Positions 6,329-49,500 of a stretch of DNA of 64,000 nucleotides are shown here, one piece after another. This stretch comes from an uncultured Candidatus Saccharibacteria bacterium. Lineage in GTDB: Bacteria; Patescibacteriota; WWE3; 2-01-FULL-39-13. Position numbers and translations under genes: made by a program. The stretch spans positions 76,019-140,018 of the forward strand of contig OZ246395.1 of the NCBI GenBank assembly GCA_965230915.1. Direction: 5' to 3'. The stretch's first letter is position 1; the number at the start of each line of letters is the position of its first letter. The notes under the pieces are model-generated. The model saw only the letters and a program-made list of their open reading frames with translations, was not told where the DNA came from and did no database searches.

Positions 6329-6538
6329 AATTAACTAACACAAATAGCACGAAAAGCTTTGTGTACGAAAAGTCTACACAATGTTTTTTGTCTACGCAAG
6401 ACATTTATTTCGACTTCTTCTCGAAATTTGACGCCTTCGGCTAATATTCCTATTGGAATAGGCAGCCTGGCGAATTTCTCAAAAAACTCGTAATAAATAG
6501 AGCATTTAAAATGAATTTAAGATTTGGGAGATTTAGCC

Positions 6539-27274: not shown

Positions 27275-28549
27275 TTATTTATCAGAAGAGGTTAAGCTTG
27301 GAGCTTCTTGCTCGATATGGTGAGCCTGATTATTTATTAATGATGTAACTGAACTCACCTTATTATTTTTGAAGATAGGGCTGTCATCTTGAAATATACG
27401 TGTTCTTCCAAGTGTCGAAAGTGTAATTATTGGCAAAATACCAATAATCATAAGGGTTATTCTTATGGTTAAATCATCTTCAAGGTTTAGTCCGGTAAAT
27501 AGTAATAAACAAATAGGGACTAATCGGCCGATTGATGTTACTGTGTCAACTAAATATTGATATTCGGAGTACAATTGATATTCTTTGCGGTCTTCGCTCA
27601 TAATTCGCTCTGTTGAAGCGTTATATGAAACCTCTTTAACAACATCCATAAATTGGGCTGCGACTAAAAAGCCTAAAATAACGGCAAAATTTATTTCAGA
27701 TAAAAAGAATGTACTGGCCGCTGCAAAGATAAATGCTCCAATAGAATAGAGAACCTTAGAGTTAAAATTATTTACCCATATTGTTAAAAAGAAGCTAAGG
27801 ATAATCCCGAATAAGACGATACCGCTATTTATTAAACCCCATTTCAAGAAAGATTCAGCAAACATAAGTACGATGACCGGAAGAATTGTAAGCGTAATAC
27901 CTTCTGAAAGGCCTTGAATAAAAACCCCTTTAACTAAATGAATCTTATCGCTATTGGTTCCAGGGAAGGTCAGAATATTTTTTAAATCAAAATTATTATG
28001 ATTTGGCGGTATTTTATATAAAAATACAACAATTGTTTTAGCTATTAAGAGAATAATTATTAATTGGAATAGAAAGTCGAAATTTCCTTCTGTAACAGTA
28101 AGTAAATAGGCAGCCGCTAATGGTAATGAAACACTAATAAGTCTTGAAAATAATGATTTATCCGCGTAGTAATGGTTTAAATCAGCACGTTCTCCTTGAA
28201 CTTCGTATTCAATAGCATGGATTGGAATACTTCTAAATGATTCGCCAACGCCTCCCAGTACTGCAATTACAACTAAAGCCAGAATACTGATAGGAAATTG
28301 AACATAAATCATTAGTACAATCTGAAGGATTTGTATCCATATACCAACAAGCATTGTTATTTTTATATCGAACTTGTCGGTAAGATAGCCTGCCAAAAGT
28401 CCAATGATTGGTGTAACCGCAAAATAAGCCAACACGAATATAAGCACGTCGCGCAGATCGCGTGTGTTGTCCCATATATATAAAGTGAAGAAGGTTCTTT
28501 CGAGCACGTCACTTGATATGGCGAGTAGGCGAAGTGGAGGCAAGTTCAT
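27275..28549 (-). CDS. MFS-like polytopic transporter
   Basis: About 12 hydrophobic helices. Weak similarity only. Confidence 0.4.
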   Translation of the reverse strand: MNLPPLRLLAISSDVLERTFFTLYIWDNTRDLRDVLIFVLAYFAVTPIIGLLAGYLTDKFDIKITMLVGIWIQILQIVLMIYVQFPISILALVVIAVLGGVGESFRSIPIHAIEYEVQGERADLNHYYADKSLFSRLISVSLPLAAAYLLTVTEGNFDFLFQLIIILLIAKTIVVFLYKIPPNHNNFDLKNILTFPGTNSDKIHLVKGVFIQGLSEGITLTILPVIVLMFAESFLKWGLINSGIVLFGIILSFFLTIWVNNFNSKVLYSIGAFIFAAASTFFLSEINFAVILGFLVAAQFMDVVKEVSYNASTERIMSEDRKEYQLYSEYQYLVDTVTSIGRLVPICLLLFTGLNLEDDLTIRITLMIIGILPIITLSTLGRTRIFQDDSPIFKNNKVSSVTSLINNQAHHIEQEAPSLTSSDK

Positions 28550-31012: not shown

Positions 31013-31095
31013 ATAGGCCTTGAATGCTGTTGCGGCATTCGATTAACTTTGATCACTGTGGTGGTGATCACTATAACATCCAGAAAGGGATTGTT

Positions 31096-32670: not shown

Positions 32671-32807
32671 TTGTAGAATTTGAATTTATTCATCGAAATT
32701 TCGCAGCCTGGCGAATTTCTCATAATAAATTCAAATTCCAGACATGCACTCACAAGTTTAGATTATAAAACTTTACGCAAAAATATCCTATGCTATACTG
32801 CAGAAAT

Positions 32808-40048: not shown

Positions 40049-40487
40049 TATGGAATTCTCAGTACTAAACTTAAATTCAACCAAATTTTTTGCCTATATT
40101 TTTTCATCTTTAATGCTCTTTATGGTGGTGGCCATAAGTGCTCCCCAGATGTATTCTGACGCAGCGAGACCTGCATACGCGAGTCAGAAAGAAGTAGTTG
40201 TATTGCAGTGTGAAATTCGCTAGAATAACCGTTGCTTAGTTGGTTGAACAAAAATTCTCCAACATTCTAGCGAAAATTCGCACAAGCCCAGACATAACTA
40301 ACTAAAACAGAAGCCTTTCTGGTTTTTGTTTTTTTGAGTTTTTGTCCACCTAAATAGGGTGTAAGCGAGTAGCTCATTTATAATTAAAGAGATTTTTTTA
40401 CAGTCATATAAAATCATTTTTTATTAATTTATTAAAATTAAAAACAGCAAACCAATCGAGTTTTGATTGGTGAAAAGAATTCTATTT

Positions 40488-41924
<1,437 letters not shown>

Positions 41925-42116: not shown

Positions 42117-42142
42117 AAAAAGCGCTCGCAAGCGCGCTTTTT
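42117..42142. terminator. A4-hairpin-T4 bidirectional terminator candidate
   Basis: AAAAAGCGCTCGCAAGCGCGCTTTTT. Confidence 0.5.
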
Positions 42143-42175
42143 GTAATAAAAATCTCTTTAAAATTAACAAACGAA

Positions 42176-42201
42176 GGCCGCAATTAAATGCGGCTTTTTT
42201 T
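42176..42201 (+). terminator. intrinsic terminator downstream of 16S
   Basis: GGCCGCA-AUUAAA-UGCGGC stem-loop followed by TTTTTTT. Confidence 0.7.
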
Positions 42202-42260: not shown

Positions 42261-42277
42261 TATACTAAATTAGTATA
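42261..42277 (+). promoter_or_regulatory. 17-bp palindrome TATACTAAATTAGTATA (promoter/operator candidate) upstream of giant gene 1
   Basis: Half-sites TATACTAA/TTAGTATA are perfect reverse complements. It ends 16 nt before the ATG and contains a -10-like TATACT. Confidence 0.4.
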
Positions 42278-42293
42278 TTAAACCTAACTGCCC

Positions 42294-45200
42294 ATGAGGA
42301 ACTTACTTAACATTTTCGCTTCACTGTTTCTATTGATATCAATTGTGATTGCTGGGGATGTGCTGCTTGGCTTTTTAGGATTCCATAAGACAGATAATTT
42401 AATAATGGGCGAGGTTTTAACCCAAACAGCTGGCGCAGAAACCGGGAATTTTGTGAGTCCGGTTGAACTTAAAACGAGCGCGGTTGTTCCTTCTGTTCTT
42501 GCTGCCACAACTGCAGTAACTCCGATAACTACAGCTTCAATTCTAAAATCTTTTTCGTGGGAAGAAATTTCTACCAAACTAAGAGCTTTGCCTGATTTTT
42601 ATTTCAGCGAAGATGTCCAATTCTATAAAGATGCAAATATCAGTGGTTCAGCATTTATCGAAAACAATTTAGAAGTTGGGGAAAAGTTAAAAGTTCACGA
42701 TGACGCAAAAATTAAAGGTAATCTTACTGTTGAAGGAGAAAAAATTTCAATTAATGGAGAGAAATATATTTTTCCGGACGAGCAGGGTGTCGGATCGTTA
42801 ACTAACGATGGCGAAGGTAATTTATCGTGGGCAAGTATCGCTAACAGTATTACAACCTTTTTAGGGCTTAGTGATACTCCAAATTCGTACTCGTCGAACG
42901 AAGATAAAATTGTGCGTGTAAATACTGCAGGCACTGCTTTAGAATTTGTAGATCTATCTAGCTTAGGCGGAGTTACATCTGTCACAAATAGTGACGGAAC
43001 ACTTTTGATTTCTCCCACAACTGGCGATGTAATTGCGTCGTTGAACTTGGGGAATGCCAATTCTTGGTCTGCCGCTCAAACCTTTTCTTCTAATACATAT
43101 TTTTCTGATAGCAGCGCTATTAGTTCATCCGGAAATTTAGGAATTGGAACGACTGCCCCAAGCTCAAAGTTAACTTTAGTTGGCGGAGATTATTTGCATA
43201 ATGCAAGCGGGTCACTTTCATTAACGGGGACATATACCGCACCTGGTAATACTGAGGATGTTTATGTTCAGGGTAGATACGCTTATTTAGCGTCCGATTC
43301 AAACGGATTTTATATTGTCGATATTAATAATCCTGCAGCTCCTGCTTTAGTTTCTAATATAAATACAGCTGGGGTTGCATATGGTGTTTATGTTTCAGGT
43401 AGGTATTTGTATGTGGCAGATGGAACAGCTGGGCTTTTAATTTATGATGTAACTAATCCAAACTCACCTGTAAGAGTCGGTTTATATAATACTTCAGGCC
43501 AAGCTAGAAAGGTCACTGTTTCTGGAAATTACGCGTATGTAGCAGATTACACAGGCGGGTTAGATGTAATTGATGTTACTAATCCAAGAAATCCAACTTT
43601 GGTCTCAGCTACTAGTACTACATTAGCTTTAGATGTTTACGTAGCTGGCAGATATTTATATTTAGCAGATGGGTCAAATGGGCTTGTAACTTATGATATT
43701 ACAAACCCGGCCTCGCCAAGTTTGGTATCTACCCAAGCGATGAGTGGAACAGCTCGAGATATATATGTGTCGGGCAAATATGCTTACGTTGCCGCATCTG
43801 ATATATCGGCTGCGCTAAGAATATTCGATATAAGCAATCCCAGTTCGCCTTCAGCCACAGGGTCCGTATCAATTAGTCAGCCTTTAGGAGTTGTTGTTTC
43901 AGGTAGGTATGCGTATGTCGCAGATGGAACCGGCGGTGGCGGGATGAGGGTTGTGGACATTAGTAATCCTACAGCTCCAGTTATTGCAGCTTCCTATGTT
44001 TCTGCAACATTTGGCGCTACGAGTGTTTATGTATCAGGCAAATACGCATATTTGGCTGATAATGATACGGGGCTTGAAATTGTTGGAATTAATGGGGATG
44101 ATACACCGGCTGTAACCACGGGCAATTTATCATCAGGGAATATTACTGTTTTAGACAGTGCGGATATCGGAAATAATTTAAATATACGAAACAGTGTTAA
44201 CGTCGGTGGAAGAGCTAACTTTAGCGGAATGGTCGCAATCGGAGTTTCGAGCCCACAAACTGCATTAACGATTGCACAGTCAAGCACAGGTGATCTTCTA
44301 AATTTACTGAACAATTCAACTAGCTTATTTATTGTTAAAGGTAACGGAAGAGTTGGTATTGGAACTACAGCTCCGGAGTCGCTATTATCACTCGCAGGTG
44401 GAGCAACAATTGGGGCAGGTTATACGGGTATTGGAATTTCAGCTCCACTAAACGGACTTTTAGTTCAGGGGAATGTTGGTTTAGGTACTACCAACCCGAG
44501 TGAAAAGCTAAATTTAGTAGGGGGGAACTTTTTACATAAGGCGAGTGGTGACCCAGAATTAATTGCGACTGTATCAAATGTGGCACAAGATGTTGTCGTT
44601 GTTGGTAAGTACGCATATATTGCGGATCAAAATCAAACCGCCGCATTAAGGATTTTAGATATAAGTAATCCTTCGAGTCCTTCTCAAGTTGGATCTGCTA
44701 ATATTGGTGGATTTAATCAGGCAGATGAAGTCTTCGTTTCAGGTAGTTACGCATATTTAGCAGCTTTATCTAATGGAACTAAGATTATTGATATAAGTAA
44801 CCCTTCAAGTCCAACGGTTGTTGCTTCGATTGCCGCCGGGAGCAGCGTTAGAGGTGTTTTTGTACAGGGTAACTATTTATACACTATAGACAGCGGAGTT
44901 GTAGGTGATGCATTGAAGATTTATGACATAACTGTTCCTACAAGTCCTAGACTTGCAGGGTCGTATGGAAGTGTTTTGTATGGTGTATATGTTTCGGGTA
45001 AATATGCTTATTTAGCTCAGCATAGTGGGGGAATGTTAATTGTTGATATTAGCGATCCGTCGAGTCCCAGTTTAGTTGGTACTTATGACACTCCAGGCGC
45101 AGCGCTAAAGATTACGGTTGTTGGTAAGTATGCGTATATAGCTGATCTTGATGGTGGTTTGCAGATAGTTAATATATCAAACCCAGCATCGCCAGTTTCT

Positions 45201-46481
45201 GCCGGTTCTTATGCTACTACAGATTCGGCATATGATGTTAAAGTTGCCGGAAATTACGCTTATATTGCAGAAAATGGTACGAATAATTACTTCGAGATAA
45301 TTGATATATCAAACCCAGCATCGCCGGTTTTAGTTTCTACCGTAGGCACTACAGAATCATATGGAATTGATGTAGCCGGAAAGTATGCTTATATTGCAGA
45401 TCGAAGTGCCGGAACAAAAATTTATGATATTAATGGGGTTGATACTCCATCATTGGTAGCTGGAGCTGTAGAGACAACAGATCTTAATGTAACAAATAAT
45501 TTATCAGTCGATAATTATCTATTGGCGAATAGTTTAGGTATTGGTCGCGGTGGTGCAAAGATTGAAGGAACCGTTGGTATCGGAACATCATCGTCACAAT
45601 CTGCACTGACAGTCTCGCAAAGAGGCTCAGGATTTATTTTTAATGTATTAGATGGAAATACAAGTGTATTCACTGTTGAAGATGGCGGAAATGTAGGAAT
45701 CGGAACAAGCGACCCGGGAAGTAAATTATCAATTGCTAATTTGGGCACTGGAACGGGTACAACGCTTGTTATTGATTCAAGTGGCAATGTGTTCAAAGAT
45801 TCATCTTCCGAGCGCTATAAAATGAATATAGAACCTTTAAACGTGGATTTTGAAAAGGTTCTCGAACTTCAACCAAAGGAATATGACTTCAAAGATAGTG
45901 GTATACATACAATTGGTTATATTGCGGAAGAAGTTGAAGCACTTGGCGGGTTGGATGATTTATTGATTTACGACAATCAGGGCCGAGTCGATGGATTTAA
46001 ATATGACCGTCTTCCAATTTACACATTAGAAATTGTTAAAGGTTTAAATGAACGAGTTGAATCACTTGAAGAACGTGTAAGTAATTTAGAATCAAAAGCG
46101 GGTGTGTTAGGAGATTCAGATGATGCAACTGATTCCGAAGGGGTTGCTGATGAAAGCGTTAGTGACTATTACGGAATAATTGTTGTAGATGAAGATGGCG
46201 ATGTAGAAATAGAAAATAACGTTGAAGTTAGAGGTCTATTACGCGCCGCAAAGATAAATATTTCAGAAAATTCAGAAGCAGTAGGAAAGGCAGTGATTCG
46301 TGCGGGTCAAACTTCGGTTGAGGTGGGTAGTGCAACTTTAACTGTTGATTCGGTAATTTTTGTTACTCCAGATTCTCCTGTGACTATCTCTGCAAAGAAA
46401 ACTGATTACGATAAATTTGAAGTTAAATTAGATAAATCATATGACTACGATGTCAACGTAAATTGGATCGTTATTAACTAA
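42294..46481 (+). CDS. giant secreted/surface protein (1395 aa): N-terminal anchor, LVIVD-type β-propeller repeats, GIGTT repeats, C-terminal intramolecular-chaperone (peptidase S74/tail-fibre) domain
   Basis: N-terminal TM helix. About 20 repeats of the type GRYAYVADGTAGLLIYDVTNPNSP. GIGTTAP…L.LVGG motifs. C-terminal SSERYKMNIEPL…IGYIAEEVEAL… as in phage tail-fibre chaperone domains. Confidence 0.6.
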   Translation: MRNLLNIFASLFLLISIVIAGDVLLGFLGFHKTDNLIMGEVLTQTAGAETGNFVSPVELKTSAVVPSVLAATTAVTPITTASILKSFSWEEISTKLRALPDFYFSEDVQFYKDANISGSAFIENNLEVGEKLKVHDDAKIKGNLTVEGEKISINGEKYIFPDEQGVGSLTNDGEGNLSWASIANSITTFLGLSDTPNSYSSNEDKIVRVNTAGTALEFVDLSSLGGVTSVTNSDGTLLISPTTGDVIASLNLGNANSWSAAQTFSSNTYFSDSSAISSSGNLGIGTTAPSSKLTLVGGDYLHNASGSLSLTGTYTAPGNTEDVYVQGRYAYLASDSNGFYIVDINNPAAPALVSNINTAGVAYGVYVSGRYLYVADGTAGLLIYDVTNPNSPVRVGLYNTSGQARKVTVSGNYAYVADYTGGLDVIDVTNPRNPTLVSATSTTLALDVYVAGRYLYLADGSNGLVTYDITNPASPSLVSTQAMSGTARDIYVSGKYAYVAASDISAALRIFDISNPSSPSATGSVSISQPLGVVVSGRYAYVADGTGGGGMRVVDISNPTAPVIAASYVSATFGATSVYVSGKYAYLADNDTGLEIVGINGDDTPAVTTGNLSSGNITVLDSADIGNNLNIRNSVNVGGRANFSGMVAIGVSSPQTALTIAQSSTGDLLNLLNNSTSLFIVKGNGRVGIGTTAPESLLSLAGGATIGAGYTGIGISAPLNGLLVQGNVGLGTTNPSEKLNLVGGNFLHKASGDPELIATVSNVAQDVVVVGKYAYIADQNQTAALRILDISNPSSPSQVGSANIGGFNQADEVFVSGSYAYLAALSNGTKIIDISNPSSPTVVASIAAGSSVRGVFVQGNYLYTIDSGVVGDALKIYDITVPTSPRLAGSYGSVLYGVYVSGKYAYLAQHSGGMLIVDISDPSSPSLVGTYDTPGAALKITVVGKYAYIADLDGGLQIVNISNPASPVSAGSYATTDSAYDVKVAGNYAYIAENGTNNYFEIIDISNPASPVLVSTVGTTESYGIDVAGKYAYIADRSAGTKIYDINGVDTPSLVAGAVETTDLNVTNNLSVDNYLLANSLGIGRGGAKIEGTVGIGTSSSQSALTVSQRGSGFIFNVLDGNTSVFTVEDGGNVGIGTSDPGSKLSIANLGTGTGTTLVIDSSGNVFKDSSSERYKMNIEPLNVDFEKVLELQPKEYDFKDSGIHTIGYIAEEVEALGGLDDLLIYDNQGRVDGFKYDRLPIYTLEIVKGLNERVESLEERVSNLESKAGVLGDSDDATDSEGVADESVSDYYGIIVVDEDGDVEIENNVEVRGLLRAAKINISENSEAVGKAVIRAGQTSVEVGSATLTVDSVIFVTPDSPVTISAKKTDYDKFEVKLDKSYDYDVNVNWIVIN

Positions 46482-46511
46482 AATTCTTTTTATTCTTAAC
46501 TCAATTTCAGC

Positions 46512-46528
46512 TATACTAAATTAGTATC
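46512..46528 (+). promoter_or_regulatory. second copy of the TATACTAAATTAGTAT(C) palindrome upstream of giant gene 2
   Basis: 16 of 17 positions identical to the copy at 42261. It lies 49 nt upstream of ATG 46577. Confidence 0.4.
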
Positions 46529-46576
46529 CTATAAACAAAGGACAGGGCTTTGTGTTGTTGGATAGGAACCTATTAA

Positions 46577-49500
46577 ATGAAAAGGTTTTTAAACATCTTT
46601 GCAACCTTGTTTTTGTCTATTTCGCTTATTGCGGTAATAAACGTATTTGTAAATGTATTCGAAGCGAAAAATAATGGTTATGAAGCAGAATTTCCAATAG
46701 ATCCTAAAGTTAAAGCGGCTTCTGTTACGTATGAAATTGCTGATTCTCCTCAAAGTGCCTATAGTGCTGAGGCAAAAACGACTACAATTAATAACTCAAT
46801 TTATTCAGATAGCAATGTATTAAAAGACTTCTTAGTATGGAAAGATTCTGAACCCGGTTTGGTTAAGAAAGCTGAGGTTATTCCAGATACATATTTTGAT
46901 GAGGATGCGCAATTTGAAAAGCGCTTGAATGTAGCGGGAAATGGATTAATCGAAGGTGGCTTAGCAATAGGCGGTCGATTAAGAGTTGACGATGAAGCAA
47001 CATTTGAAGATAAAGTTACGATTGATAATGATGAAGTTGAGATAAATGGTGTTCGATATTATTTTCCGGAAGAACAGGCAGCGGATGATGGTTATGTTTT
47101 AGCAAATGATGGCGAAGGTAATTTAGATTGGATTTCACAAGAAGAAATATTCCCAGGCATATCAGGTACCGATAACAGATTAGCAAGGTTTAACGATGCA
47201 GGAACAGGAATCGAAGATTCTTCGATTGATGATTTATATTCTGGTGGTGTTGCCTTAACAATTGATTCGGATGGAGGCATTGGAATTGGGACAACTGTGA
47301 CATTGTATGATTTCGAGGTTAATGGTACTTCAAACTTCACAAGCTTTTTCTTAAATAGCGTTTTAATAACCGCTACTGCATCTGAAATCAATTCATTAAG
47401 TGGATTTTCAGCAGATGCAGGTGCCGTTACATTCGGTGATGGTTCAGGAATAACAAACGATCAGGCAAATTTTTATTGGGATGATTCTTCTGATAGTTTA
47501 GGTATCGGAACAAGTGCTCCGACTCAAGCGTTAGATGTTGATGGGGGAATACGTACAACCGATGATGTTTATATCGGATCGATCGGATTAAATGATACAA
47601 CCGGAACGGCTACATCCGGGGCTTCGAGGATTGGTGTTTTCGATGAGTTTCAAAATACGAACTCGACTAACCTTCAAGATGTTTTAGATGATCTTGATGC
47701 TTCGATTACTACGTTCGCAGCTGGGGCAGGAGATATCGAAGCAGTCGGATCGATGGCAGCAGGCGAAACATTTAATAGCGCGTCAGCCGACGATCAATGG
47801 TTAGGATTAGGTGCAAGCGCCGGACGAATTGAATTCGACGACCAAACAACCGATGAAGTTAACATTTTAAATGCAAGATTGGGAATTGGAACAACAGTTC
47901 CCACAGAAACATTACATGTTGCTGGAACAGCATTAGTTACCGGAGAAATAACAGCTTCATCTGGCGTAAATATTGGCTTAAACCAGGATGCAAATCTTAT
48001 AAGTACATCCTCGGTAGGAGCTTCTTCTACAACACTATTTATTGGTAATGAATCCATTTTAACTAGTGGGGATATTGGTGTGTCTGTCCAAGCTTGGGAT
48101 ACCGACCTTGATACAATGGCTGGCTTAAGTAGTGCAGACGGCAATTTTATTGTCGGGTCAGGTTCAGGATGGGTTGTTGAATCTGGAAACACTGCAAGAA
48201 CATCATTAGGTCTTGGAACCGGTGATAGTCCTCAATTTGCCGGGCTTAATATAACCGGAAACACAACCCTAGGTGATGCTGCAGGTGATACAGTGACATC
48301 AAATGCAGCAAGTTGGACATTTGCAAATGATACGAACGTAACAGTATCAGGTGGAGTCGGAGGATTTAGTTTTGATACAAATACTTTGTCGATCGATTCA
48401 ACAAACGATAGAGTTGGAGTAGGTACGACTGCTCCATCATATGCATTTGAAGTTAATGGAAGTGCTGGTGGTATTGCTATTACGCGCACAAACGATACAG
48501 CGTCAATAGAGCCATTTCTCTTATTTAGAAAAGGAACAACTCCGGTTGATATAGCTCAGATAAGAGCGATTGATGGTGGAGGGTTAAGGTTTACAAATGG
48601 AAATGCGTCAACTGAATGGGCCAGAATTTCAAGTACTGGCAATGTTGGAATTGGAACAACAGTTCCGAGAAGCTTACTTTCAGTTGCAGGTGGAGTAGAA
48701 GTTGGTTCAGGATATACAGCTACAGGTGTATCAGCTCCAACAAATGGATTAATTGTCCAAGGTGCGGTTGGAGTAGGAACTTCTAACCCTACAAGTGGGG
48801 TTGCCCTAGATGTAAATGGAACGATAAAAATTTCCGGGGGATCTCCAGGCGCAAATAAAGTTTTAATTTCAGATGCGAATGGGGTTGCCAGCTGGACAAG
48901 CTTATCGGCGGGGGGAGTTGGAGTTTCTTCAATAACAGGAACCACAAATCAAATTACTGCGTCGGCATCAACGGGGGCTGTAACTCTAAGTTTGCCGTCG
49001 ACATTAATTGCACCTGGAACGTTCCAGTCACTCGGGAATATCACATTCGGTGATGCGGCAGCAGATACAGTCACATCGAATGCTTCAAGTTGGACATTTG
49101 CAAATGATACAAATGTGACTCTATCAGGCGGATTAGCCGGACTTAGTTTTGATACAAATACACTATCAATTGATGCAGCAAACGATCGGATTGGAGTTGG
49201 AACAACAACTCCAGGAGCAAAATTAGATGTAGCAGGATCAGCCAGATATCTTGCAACTAACACACTTCCAACCGGTGGAGGAAAAGGTTTGGAACTTTGG
49301 TATTATCAGACCGGCGATTATGGTCTTGTATTATCCTACGACAGAGGCACAAATGCCTATCAAGACTTGAGGGTGGCTGGTAGTTCTATTGGCTTTGAGG
49401 AGGGTTCGACAAGAATAATGACGATTGATGGCGGAAATGTCGGTATTGGAAACACTGCCCCACAGGAGCTTTTAAGTTTATCTTCGACTACTGATCCGAC

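What the first reader, a model, noticed from the sequence alone, without database searches (positions are those of the whole stretch)
42261..46528. Identical 17-bp palindrome TATACTAAATTAGTATA immediately upstream of both giant genes
Copy 1 (42261-42277) ends 16 nt before the ATG of gene 1. Copy 2 (46512-46528) is 16 of 17 identical and lies 49 nt before gene 2. The half-sites TATACTAA/TTAGTATA are exact reverse complements around a central A. That is the architecture of a dimeric repressor or activator operator, and it overlaps a -10-like TATACT. It was not seen before any other gene in the window. It marks the two paralogs as a co-regulated unit.
Basis: seen in the sequence. Interest (0 to 1): 0.6.

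Follow-up and report, generated by a model that had tools for sequence, protein, structure and literature searches.

The report
Shared palindrome at two giant-gene promoters
Two neighbouring giant surface-protein genes of a tiny, uncultivated (CPR-type) bacterium each carry the same 16-17 bp palindrome on top of their likely promoter -10 box; it is most likely a binding site for an unknown repressor. The site is found in this lineage only, the reading is unproven, and this kind of element is fairly ordinary.

Summary
TATACTAAATTAGTATA (42261-42277) lies 16 nt before the ATG of a 1395-aa gene. TATACTAAATTAGTATC (46512-46528) lies 48 nt (not 49) before the ATG of a 1950-aa paralog. No other site with 3 or fewer mismatches exists in the 64 kb, and weaker matches are not enriched.

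Dyad symmetry alone is unremarkable: the window holds four perfect 8-1-8 palindromes. The recurrence is what is non-random. The paralogs are only about 30% identical at the N-terminus, and promoter DNA is unalignable with the closest relative. Yet 16/16 bases are identical, and the conserved block ends where the dyad ends.

TATACT is a credible -10 box. It is used in canonical promoters elsewhere in the window, and the nearest relative keeps it at the same distance from the ATG.

The palindrome is absent from every relative found. There the two giant genes form a tight operon (gap or overlap of 4 nt or less). Copy 2 and its 95-nt spacer are therefore derived.

Best reading (about 0.5): a lineage-specific operator overlapping the -10/start site, which keeps two now separately promoted genes co-regulated. 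No regulator gene is in the window, and the source genome could not be searched.

Interest is modest.

The parts
42261..42277 (.). Palindrome copy 1, TATACTAAATTAGTATA (perfect 8-1-8 dyad)
   Evidence: It ends 16 nt before the ATG of gene 1.
46512..46528 (.). Palindrome copy 2, TATACTAAATTAGTATC (16/17; only the outermost base differs)
   Evidence: It ends 48 nt before the ATG of gene 2. It sits in a 95-nt spacer that relatives lack.
42261..42266 (+). Inferred -10 hexamer TATACT of the gene 1 promoter (left arm of copy 1)
   Evidence: It is the only strong -10-like element between the terminator (42173-42198) and the ATG. TATACT sits 27 nt before the ATG here and 26 nt before it in relative L121. 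TATACT serves as -10 in canonical promoters at 31024 (TTGACA-17-TATACT) and 36919 (TTGCAA-16-TATACT). The -35 is poor (TTTAAT). No transcription start site data exist.
46512..46517 (+). Inferred -10 hexamer TATACT of a second, internal promoter for gene 2 (left arm of copy 2)
   Evidence: Inferred by identity with copy 1. The -35 is poor (TTTATT). No terminator-like site lies in 46482-46576, so read-through from gene 1 is also possible.
42294..46481 (+). Giant gene 1 (1395 aa): N-terminal membrane anchor or signal, 12 LVIVD repeats (beta-propellers), Peptidase_S74 intramolecular-chaperone domain
   Evidence: 100% identical to P0001 from a 945,287-bp NCBI contig.
46577..52429 (+). Giant gene 2 (1950 aa): N-terminus paralogous to gene 1, GIGT-type repeats, Peptidase_S74, weak H-type lectin hit
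   Evidence: An SD-like AGGAA lies at 46564-46568, 8 nt before the ATG.
42122..42198 (+). Two intrinsic-terminator-like hairpins after the 16S rRNA gene (42122-42135 and 42173-42198, each followed by a T run)
   Evidence: The second is conserved in L121 with compensatory stem changes. Gene 1 therefore needs its own promoter.
40482..41924 (+). 16S rRNA gene directly upstream (context: the giant genes lie inside a split rRNA operon)
   Evidence: The same synteny occurs in L121.
52548..52624 (+). tRNA-Ile(GAT) directly downstream of gene 2 (context)
   Evidence: The same synteny occurs in L125.

Best explanation
The palindrome is a lineage-specific operator for an unidentified dimeric DNA-binding protein. 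It is superimposed on the core promoters of the two giant surface-protein genes.

The left arm (TATACT) is the sigma-70-type -10 hexamer. With transcription starting about 7 nt downstream, the 17-bp dyad would span roughly -12 to +5. A bound dimer would therefore block RNA polymerase, which means repression.

The ancestral state, still seen in relatives, is a two-gene operon driven by one TATACT promoter. In this lineage a 95-nt spacer carrying a second promoter arose before gene 2, and it bears the same 16-mer. Both genes therefore stay under the same control even though gene 2 can now be transcribed separately.

Shown:
- The sequence, its uniqueness in the window and its non-random recurrence.
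- Its absence from relatives and the operon state in those relatives.
- The terminators upstream.

Inferred:
- The -10 assignment and the start-site position.
- Protein binding, and that the effect is repression.
For: 1. 16/16 identity between two upstream regions whose genes are only about 30% identical. The flanks align poorly: the left flank has p = 0.155 and the right flank p = 0.83.
2. Promoter DNA turns over fast in this lineage. Window promoters against the L121 promoter give p = 0.115 and 0.58. The two window promoters against each other beat all 3000 shuffles.
3. The conserved block (16 nt) coincides with the dyad (17 nt). A promoter alone needs only the 6-nt -10 box.
4. The position is fixed relative to the -10 but not to the ATG (16 nt against 48 nt). 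This points to a function at the DNA or initiation level, not at translation.
5. The -10 assignment is supported in three ways. Terminators lie upstream. TATACT sits 26 nt before the ATG in L121 and 27 nt here. TATACT is the -10 of canonical promoters in the window and in other CPR-type genomes, for example TTGACA-17-TATACT in L086.
6. The very same sequence behaves as an operator elsewhere. In three Clostridia loci it occurs as tandem sites 31 bp apart between an Rrf2-family regulator gene and a prismane/hcp gene. In a Bacteroidia locus three copies lie next to an Xre-type HTH gene.
7. No Rfam family matches the region, and its RNA hairpins are weak.
Against: - The palindrome is absent upstream of the orthologous or homologous giant genes in L121 (same 16S-giant1-giant2-tRNA-Ile synteny), L122, L129, L130 and L132. 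There is no phylogenetic footprint.
- There are only two copies, so a single recent copying event cannot be excluded.
- No regulator gene was recognised in the 64-kb window.
- Perfect 17-bp dyads occur by chance about four times per window.
- The 16-mer alone occurs by chance in many AT-rich genomes: 120 or more single hits in unrelated taxa.
- Both promoters have poor -35 elements and no TG extension, so even the promoter assignment is an inference.
- The genome-wide distribution is untested.
Confidence: 0.5

Rival explanations
1. Promoter copy without a regulator. A short core-promoter segment of gene 1 (-10 plus the initially transcribed region) was copied in front of gene 2, or the reverse ('promoter propagation'). 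The dyad arose incidentally, for example by a template-switch mutation that made the sequence after TATACTAA its own reverse complement. The 16-mer is identical because the copy is recent, or because the -10 and start region are constrained by RNA polymerase.
For: - Relatives have one TATACT promoter and no spacer, so the second promoter is new.
- TATACT is a general -10 in this genome.
- Dyads of this size are not rare.
- There is no phylogenetic conservation and no regulator gene in the window.
- The left flanks show a faint, non-significant resemblance: TTTTTAT..TTAA.TCA.
Against: - A recent segmental copy should carry similar flanks, but identity drops abruptly at the dyad limits.
- RNA polymerase does not constrain 10 further bases after the -10 to exact identity.
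- The coincidence of repeat limits and dyad limits is unexplained.
Confidence: 0.27
2. Recombination sites. The two near-identical palindromes flank gene 1 (4.25 kb apart) and act as crossover sites for a site-specific recombinase. This would excise or invert gene 1 and so change which giant surface protein is expressed (phase or antigenic variation).
For: - Two copies bracket exactly one surface-protein gene.
- The central propeller of gene 1 differs between relatives: LVIVD in the window, FG-GAP in L121, LVIVD/Kelch in L122. This points to rapid diversification of this locus.
Against: - No recombinase, integrase or invertase domain was found in the window.
- 8-1-8 with a 1-nt centre is unlike tyrosine-recombinase sites, which have a 6-8-nt asymmetric spacer, or hix/gix-type sites.
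- No variant arrangement was seen in the few related contigs.
Confidence: 0.05
3. RNA element. The palindrome acts as a hairpin at or near the 5' end of the mRNAs, for stability, processing or attenuation.
For: Copy 1 can fold into a 9-bp hairpin (-5.9 kcal/mol, z = -3.5).
Against: - Copy 2 folds weakly (-2.1 kcal/mol, z = -1.4).
- The stems are almost all A-U pairs and there is no U-tract.
- If TATACT is the -10, the left arm is not transcribed from these promoters.
- The distance to the ATG differs (16 nt against 48 nt).
- No Rfam hit reaches threshold.
Confidence: 0.06
4. Chance coincidence of AT-rich, promoter-like sequence.
For: - The 16-mer is found in at least 120 unrelated genomes, mostly intergenic.
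- The window's intergenic DNA is AT-rich.
Against: - Expectation for two copies with 1 or fewer mismatches in 64 kb is essentially zero.
- Both copies lie before the only two members of one paralogous pair.
Confidence: 0.02

Closest known systems
Phage lambda-type operators (OR/OL sites bound by CI/Cro dimers) and, more generally, repressor operators overlapping the -10/+1 region
   Same: 17 bp, two 8-bp half-sites around a central base pair, overlapping the core promoter. Expected mechanism: occlusion of RNA polymerase by a dimeric helix-turn-helix protein. This comparison rests on established knowledge and was not tested here.
   Different: One site per promoter instead of three adjacent sites. 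No repressor gene next to it. The sequence is unrelated. Binding is untested.
Rrf2-family (NsrR/IscR-like) operators, as seen here in Clostridia between an Rrf2 gene and hcp (prismane) (L006, L017, L091)
   Same: The identical 16-17-mer, TATACTAAATTAGTATA and close variants, lies in the regulator-target intergenic region. Rrf2 repressors of hcp/hmp are described in PMC1274295.
   Different: In Clostridia the sites come in tandem pairs 31 bp apart and sit beside the regulator gene. Here there are single sites, no Rrf2 gene in the window, unrelated target genes and a very distant phylum. A similar AT-rich palindrome lies next to an Xre-type gene in L046, so the sequence does not identify the regulator family.
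Fur/PerR/Zur-type 7-1-7 boxes and LexA-type SOS boxes
   Same: Short AT-rich dyads with a 1-nt centre (the Fur family) that overlap -10 boxes of regulon members.
   Different: The half-site sequence does not match: CTAA-N-TTAG here against TAAT-N-ATTA in Fur-family boxes (my own knowledge, not tested). No regulon beyond two genes is visible.
Promoter propagation / 'putative mobile promoters' (identical promoter segments before different genes of one genome)
   Same: The same core-promoter sequence occurs before two genes. The second copy is evolutionarily new relative to relatives.
   Different: The copied unit would be only about 16 nt, and its limits are exactly those of a dyad.

Membership tests
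Operator of a dimeric transcription factor | Dyad symmetry of two half-sites at a fixed spacing | tested here: met
   8-1-8 perfect in copy 1 and 7-1-7 (ATACTAA-A-TTAGTAT) within copy 2.
Operator of a dimeric transcription factor | Placed at a defined position relative to core promoter elements | tested here: inconclusive
   The left arm equals the best -10 candidate in both copies. That hexamer is supported by L121 (26 nt against 27 nt to the ATG) and by other window promoters. There are no start-site data and the -35 is weak.
Operator of a dimeric transcription factor | Recurs at several regulon members more often than chance | tested here: met
   Two sites before two paralogs. None elsewhere in 64 kb at 3 or fewer mismatches. 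Genome-wide recurrence was not testable.
Operator of a dimeric transcription factor | Conserved upstream of orthologous genes in related genomes (phylogenetic footprint) | tested here: not met
   Absent in L121, L122, L129, L130 and L132.
Operator of a dimeric transcription factor | Cognate DNA-binding protein encoded in the genome and binding shown | not testable with these tools
   No HTH, Rrf2 or other regulator domain in the window. The rest of the 945-kb genome could not be reached.
Sigma-70-type promoter | -10 hexamer with A at position 2 and T at position 6, plus a -35 at 16-18 nt or a TG extension | tested here: inconclusive
   TATACT is present. The -35 candidates TTTAAT and TTTATT match only 3/6, there is no TGn, and the consensus scan did not list either site.
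Intrinsic terminator / stable RNA hairpin | G+C-rich stem followed by a U run; folding energy well below shuffles | tested here: not met
   -5.9 and -2.1 kcal/mol, A-U stems, no U run.
Known RNA family (Rfam) | Match at or above the gathering score | tested here: not met
   Only sub-threshold hits that overlap the terminators.
Dispersed repeat (REP/MITE-like) | Many copies, typically at gene ends, longer than 30 nt with structured arms | tested here: not met
   Two copies in 64 kb, 17 nt, both at 5' ends of genes. The genome-wide count was not testable.
Site-specific recombination site | Recombinase gene nearby; inverted arms around an asymmetric 2-8-nt core | tested here: not met
   No recombinase domain in the window. 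The centre is a single base.

The most novel reading that the evidence does not exclude
A regulatory module was born recently in a CPR bacterium. An ancestral two-gene operon for giant host-contact proteins, lodged inside the 16S-tRNA-Ile spacer of the rRNA operon, was split by a new promoter. That promoter carries a copy of the same operator, so an unknown sensor-repressor, possibly Rrf2-like, gates both genes. The more exotic variant is that the two palindromes are crossover sites that excise or invert giant gene 1, giving phase variation of the cell surface.
Probability: 0.1. Interest if true: 0.6.

Novelty: new member of a known kind. Interest (0 to 1): 0.3.

Why it matters
Almost nothing is known experimentally about transcription control in CPR/Patescibacteria. 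These bacteria have very few regulators and depend on host contact. The giant, tail-fibre-like surface proteins are prime candidates for that contact.

A discrete 17-bp site shared by exactly two such genes gives a simple handle. It can serve as DNA-affinity bait or in a reporter assay to identify a regulator and its signal. The comparison with relatives also shows a concrete case of an operon being split by a new promoter that carries the same control sequence.

The feature remains one putative operator among many, in one lineage, with no evidence of binding.

Tried and rejected
1. Genome-wide search. 
2. Fetching the source contig by exact protein look-up failed twice.
3. Protein-pattern scans of metagenome contigs and viral contigs with the N-terminal alignment found no relatives. 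A 16S-based pattern in metagenome contigs found only two distant, non-syntenic CPR contigs.
4. The full-length gene 1 homology search was swamped by LVIVD repeats. The N-terminal profile search gave only 10 weak hits.
5. A MerR-type reading, with the palindrome in a 19-nt spacer between -35 and -10, was rejected. The required downstream hexamers (TAAACC and TATAAA) lack the conserved T, and the -35 candidates are poor.
6. RNA hairpin or terminator: rejected on energy and on the absence of a U run.
7. Homology of either window promoter to the L121 promoter beyond TATACT: not significant. The apparent shared words TTTAAGG, AAGGACAG and ACTGCCC are not interpretable.
8. A literature search for the genome size and for CPR promoter or leaderless-mRNA studies returned nothing.
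Full report
OBSERVATION. The sequence is as described. TATACTAAATTAGTATA occupies 42261-42277 and ends 16 nt before the ATG (42294) of a 1395-aa ORF. TATACTAAATTAGTATC occupies 46512-46528 and ends 48 nt (not 49) before the ATG (46577) of a 1950-aa ORF. Allowing three mismatches, these are the only matches in the 64 kb: 4 strand-hits against 0.61 expected, and 0 of 100 shuffles reached 4. Weaker matches are not enriched: 2 against 7.8 expected at four mismatches, and 24 against 48 at five. Dyad symmetry on its own is not special, because the window has four perfect 8-1-8 palindromes. What is non-random is that the same 16-mer precedes both members of one paralogous pair. The local alignment of the two upstream regions beat all 3000 shuffles.

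CONTEXT. The window comes from a 945,287-bp NCBI contig; P0001 is 100% identical to gene 1. Gene content suggests a CPR/Patescibacteria-type bacterium: type IV pilus parts, sortase, LytR_cpsA_psr, DsbA/VKOR, few metabolic genes, and homologs named Pacebacteria, Roizmanbacteria or WWE3. That assignment is an inference.

The two giant genes sit inside a split rRNA operon. The order is 16S rRNA (40482-41924), two terminator-like hairpins (42122-42198), gene 1, gene 2, tRNA-Ile, five small genes on the plus strand and one on the minus strand, three tRNAs, 23S and 5S.

Gene 1 encodes an N-terminal anchor, 12 LVIVD repeats and a Peptidase_S74 domain. Gene 2 encodes a paralogous N-terminus, GIGT-type repeats and Peptidase_S74. 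These look like tail-fibre-like surface proteins. The paralogs are old: 30% identity over the N-terminal ~300 aa, 56% over a 69-aa patch, and 49% over the last 61 aa.

THE LEFT ARM IS THE PROBABLE -10. Several lines support this.
- Gene 1 needs its own promoter, because two terminators follow the 16S gene. The second is conserved with compensatory changes in a relative.
- Within the 95 nt before the ATG, the only good -10 candidate is TATACT.
- The same hexamer is the -10 of canonical promoters elsewhere in the window: TTGACA-17-TATACT before 31024 and TTGCAA-16-TATACT before 36919.
- In the closest relative (L121) TATACT lies 26 nt before the ATG of the gene 1 ortholog, against 27 nt here.
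- Among the chance hits of the 16-mer in other genomes, the CPR-type ones use the TATACT as a -10. Examples are TTGACA-17-TATACT in L086 and TGC-TATACT in L034 and L050, often with the ATG 8 nt later.

The -35 candidates at both giant-gene promoters are poor, and the consensus scan did not call either site. The promoter assignment therefore remains an inference.

COMPARATIVE TEST. Three relatives with the tandem giant-gene arrangement were recovered.
- L121, L125 and L126 are Logan contigs. The 16S 3' end is nearly identical. Gene 1 is 41-63% identical and gene 2 is 42-56% identical. They keep the synteny 16S-terminator-gene1-gene2-tRNA-Ile.
- L122 (GCA_964582715.1) has an LVIVD giant followed by an S74 giant elsewhere in the genome.
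- L129 is a short contig covering the junction of two such genes.

In all three the second gene starts within 4 nt of, or overlaps, the end of the first, so they form an operon. None has the palindrome or any dyad with arms of 6 nt or more in the upstream regions. Two more distant homologs, L130 and L132, also lack one.

The palindrome is therefore not an ancestral operator of this gene family. The 95-nt spacer with copy 2 is a derived feature of the window's lineage.

Promoter DNA in this group evolves fast. The window promoters are not significantly alignable with the L121 promoter (p = 0.115 and 0.58).

WHY A PROTEIN-BINDING SITE IS STILL THE BEST READING. There are four arguments.
- Against this fast turnover, and despite roughly 30% protein identity of the genes, the two copies share 16 of 16 bases. 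The flanks are not significantly similar.
- The conserved block ends where the dyad ends. RNA polymerase would constrain six bases, not sixteen.
- The element keeps its position relative to the -10, not relative to the ATG (16 nt against 48 nt). This argues for action at transcription initiation.
- The identical sequence demonstrably sits in operator positions elsewhere. In three Clostridia loci it occurs as tandem sites 31 bp apart between an Rrf2-family regulator gene and a prismane/hcp gene. In one Bacteroidia locus three copies lie beside an Xre-type gene. Rrf2/NsrR control of hcp is described in PMC1274295.

These parallels show that such a sequence can be an operator. They do not identify the regulator here.

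With the -10 at the left arm, the dyad spans about -12 to +5. That is the classical place for a repressor.

The simplest history runs as follows. A TATACT promoter acquired a dyad. When gene 2 gained its own promoter, the same site was copied or selected, which kept the two genes co-regulated.

WEAKNESSES AND RIVALS.
- There is no phylogenetic footprint.
- There are only two copies.
- No regulator gene lies in the window.
- No genome-wide count could be made, because the source genome could not be reached.

A plain promoter copy with an incidental dyad is the main rival (about 0.27). It explains the novelty of copy 2 but not the sharp limits of identity.

A recombination-site reading (about 0.05) is prompted by the two copies bracketing gene 1 and by the swapped propeller types among relatives. 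It lacks a recombinase and a suitable site architecture.

An RNA hairpin (about 0.06) is weak energetically (-5.9 and -2.1 kcal/mol). It would not be transcribed from the inferred start sites, and no Rfam family matches.

Pure chance is excluded by the statistics.

CROSS-GENOME BEHAVIOUR OF THE 16-MER. Of these hits, 102 of 120 lie outside ORFs of 100 aa or more. The 17th base completes the dyad in 42% of hits against 32% expected (p = 0.024). The 16-mer is therefore a generic AT-rich, promoter-like word. It is mostly present by chance and sometimes as a real operator. Its occurrence in other phyla says nothing about homology.

VERDICT. The element is best described as a lineage-specific, operator-like dyad built on the -10 box of two promoters: a new member of a well-known kind. 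Interest is modest (0.3). It is a usable handle for finding a regulator in a poorly understood group, but it is unconserved and untested.

Noticed in passing
window 40482-61202; L121 1-7760; L125 6890-6966: The two giant genes lie inside a split rRNA operon. The order is 16S, giant1, giant2, tRNA-Ile, six further protein-coding genes, tRNA-Val, an odd tRNA, tRNA-Ala, 23S and 5S. The 16S-giant1-giant2-tRNA-Ile order is conserved in the closest relative.
   Followed up: partly
window 57230-57303: A tRNA (Rfam 67 bits) has an 8-nt anticodon loop, CTTCCATA. ARAGORN reports a 4-base anticodon 'tcca' and no amino-acid assignment.
   Followed up: no
window 57035-57113: tRNA-Val(TAC) is 79 nt long with a low Rfam score (45.6 bits). 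It appears to have an insertion in or next to the anticodon arm.
   Followed up: no
window 52530-52549 / 52622-52641: A 20-nt inverted repeat (95% complementary) brackets tRNA-Ile exactly. It is probably a processing stem.
   Followed up: no
window 40384-40397/42148-42161, 40469-40481/42078-42090, 58031-58049/61000-61018: Leader and trailer are complementary around the 16S and 23S genes, which suggests RNase III-type processing stems. This probably explains why about 110 nt after the 16S gene are 95% identical to L121 while the neighbouring DNA has diverged.
   Followed up: partly
window 6462-6481 and 32703-32722: A second repeated intergenic 20-mer, GCAGCCTGGCGAATTTCTCA, occurs as direct copies. 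Each copy lies inside a larger hairpin, one near the S20-like gene and one between tRNA-Pro and a DsbA-like gene. It may be a terminator or another regulatory site.
   Followed up: no
window 57304-57866: A 560-nt ORF-free spacer lies between two tRNAs. It has strong local hairpins (for example 57365/57431) and no Rfam match even at E <= 1.
   Followed up: partly
window 42294-46481 vs L121 467-3442 vs L122 2972-9997: The N- and C-termini of gene 1 are conserved, but the central beta-propeller differs between relatives: LVIVD x12 in the window, FG-GAP in L121, LVIVD/Kelch in L122. This looks like cassette-like domain swapping in a surface protein.
   Followed up: partly
window-wide, e.g. upstream of 27275-28549(-), 37891, 56020-56922(-), 31024: Many genes have a -10-like hexamer only 6-12 nt before the ATG and no Shine-Dalgarno sequence. 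This suggests frequent leaderless or very short-leader mRNAs.
   Followed up: partly
proteins P0138, P0139, P0174 (homologs of gene 2): Some giant S74/tail-fibre-like homologs in CPR genomes carry MerR/HTH_17-type DNA-binding domains according to precomputed Pfam hits.
   Followed up: no
L006 1981-2028, L017 541-588, L091 2228-2275: In three Clostridia genomes the same palindrome occurs as tandem sites 31 bp apart between an Rrf2-family regulator gene and a prismane/hcp gene. This is a likely uncharacterised Rrf2 operator for hcp.
   Followed up: partly
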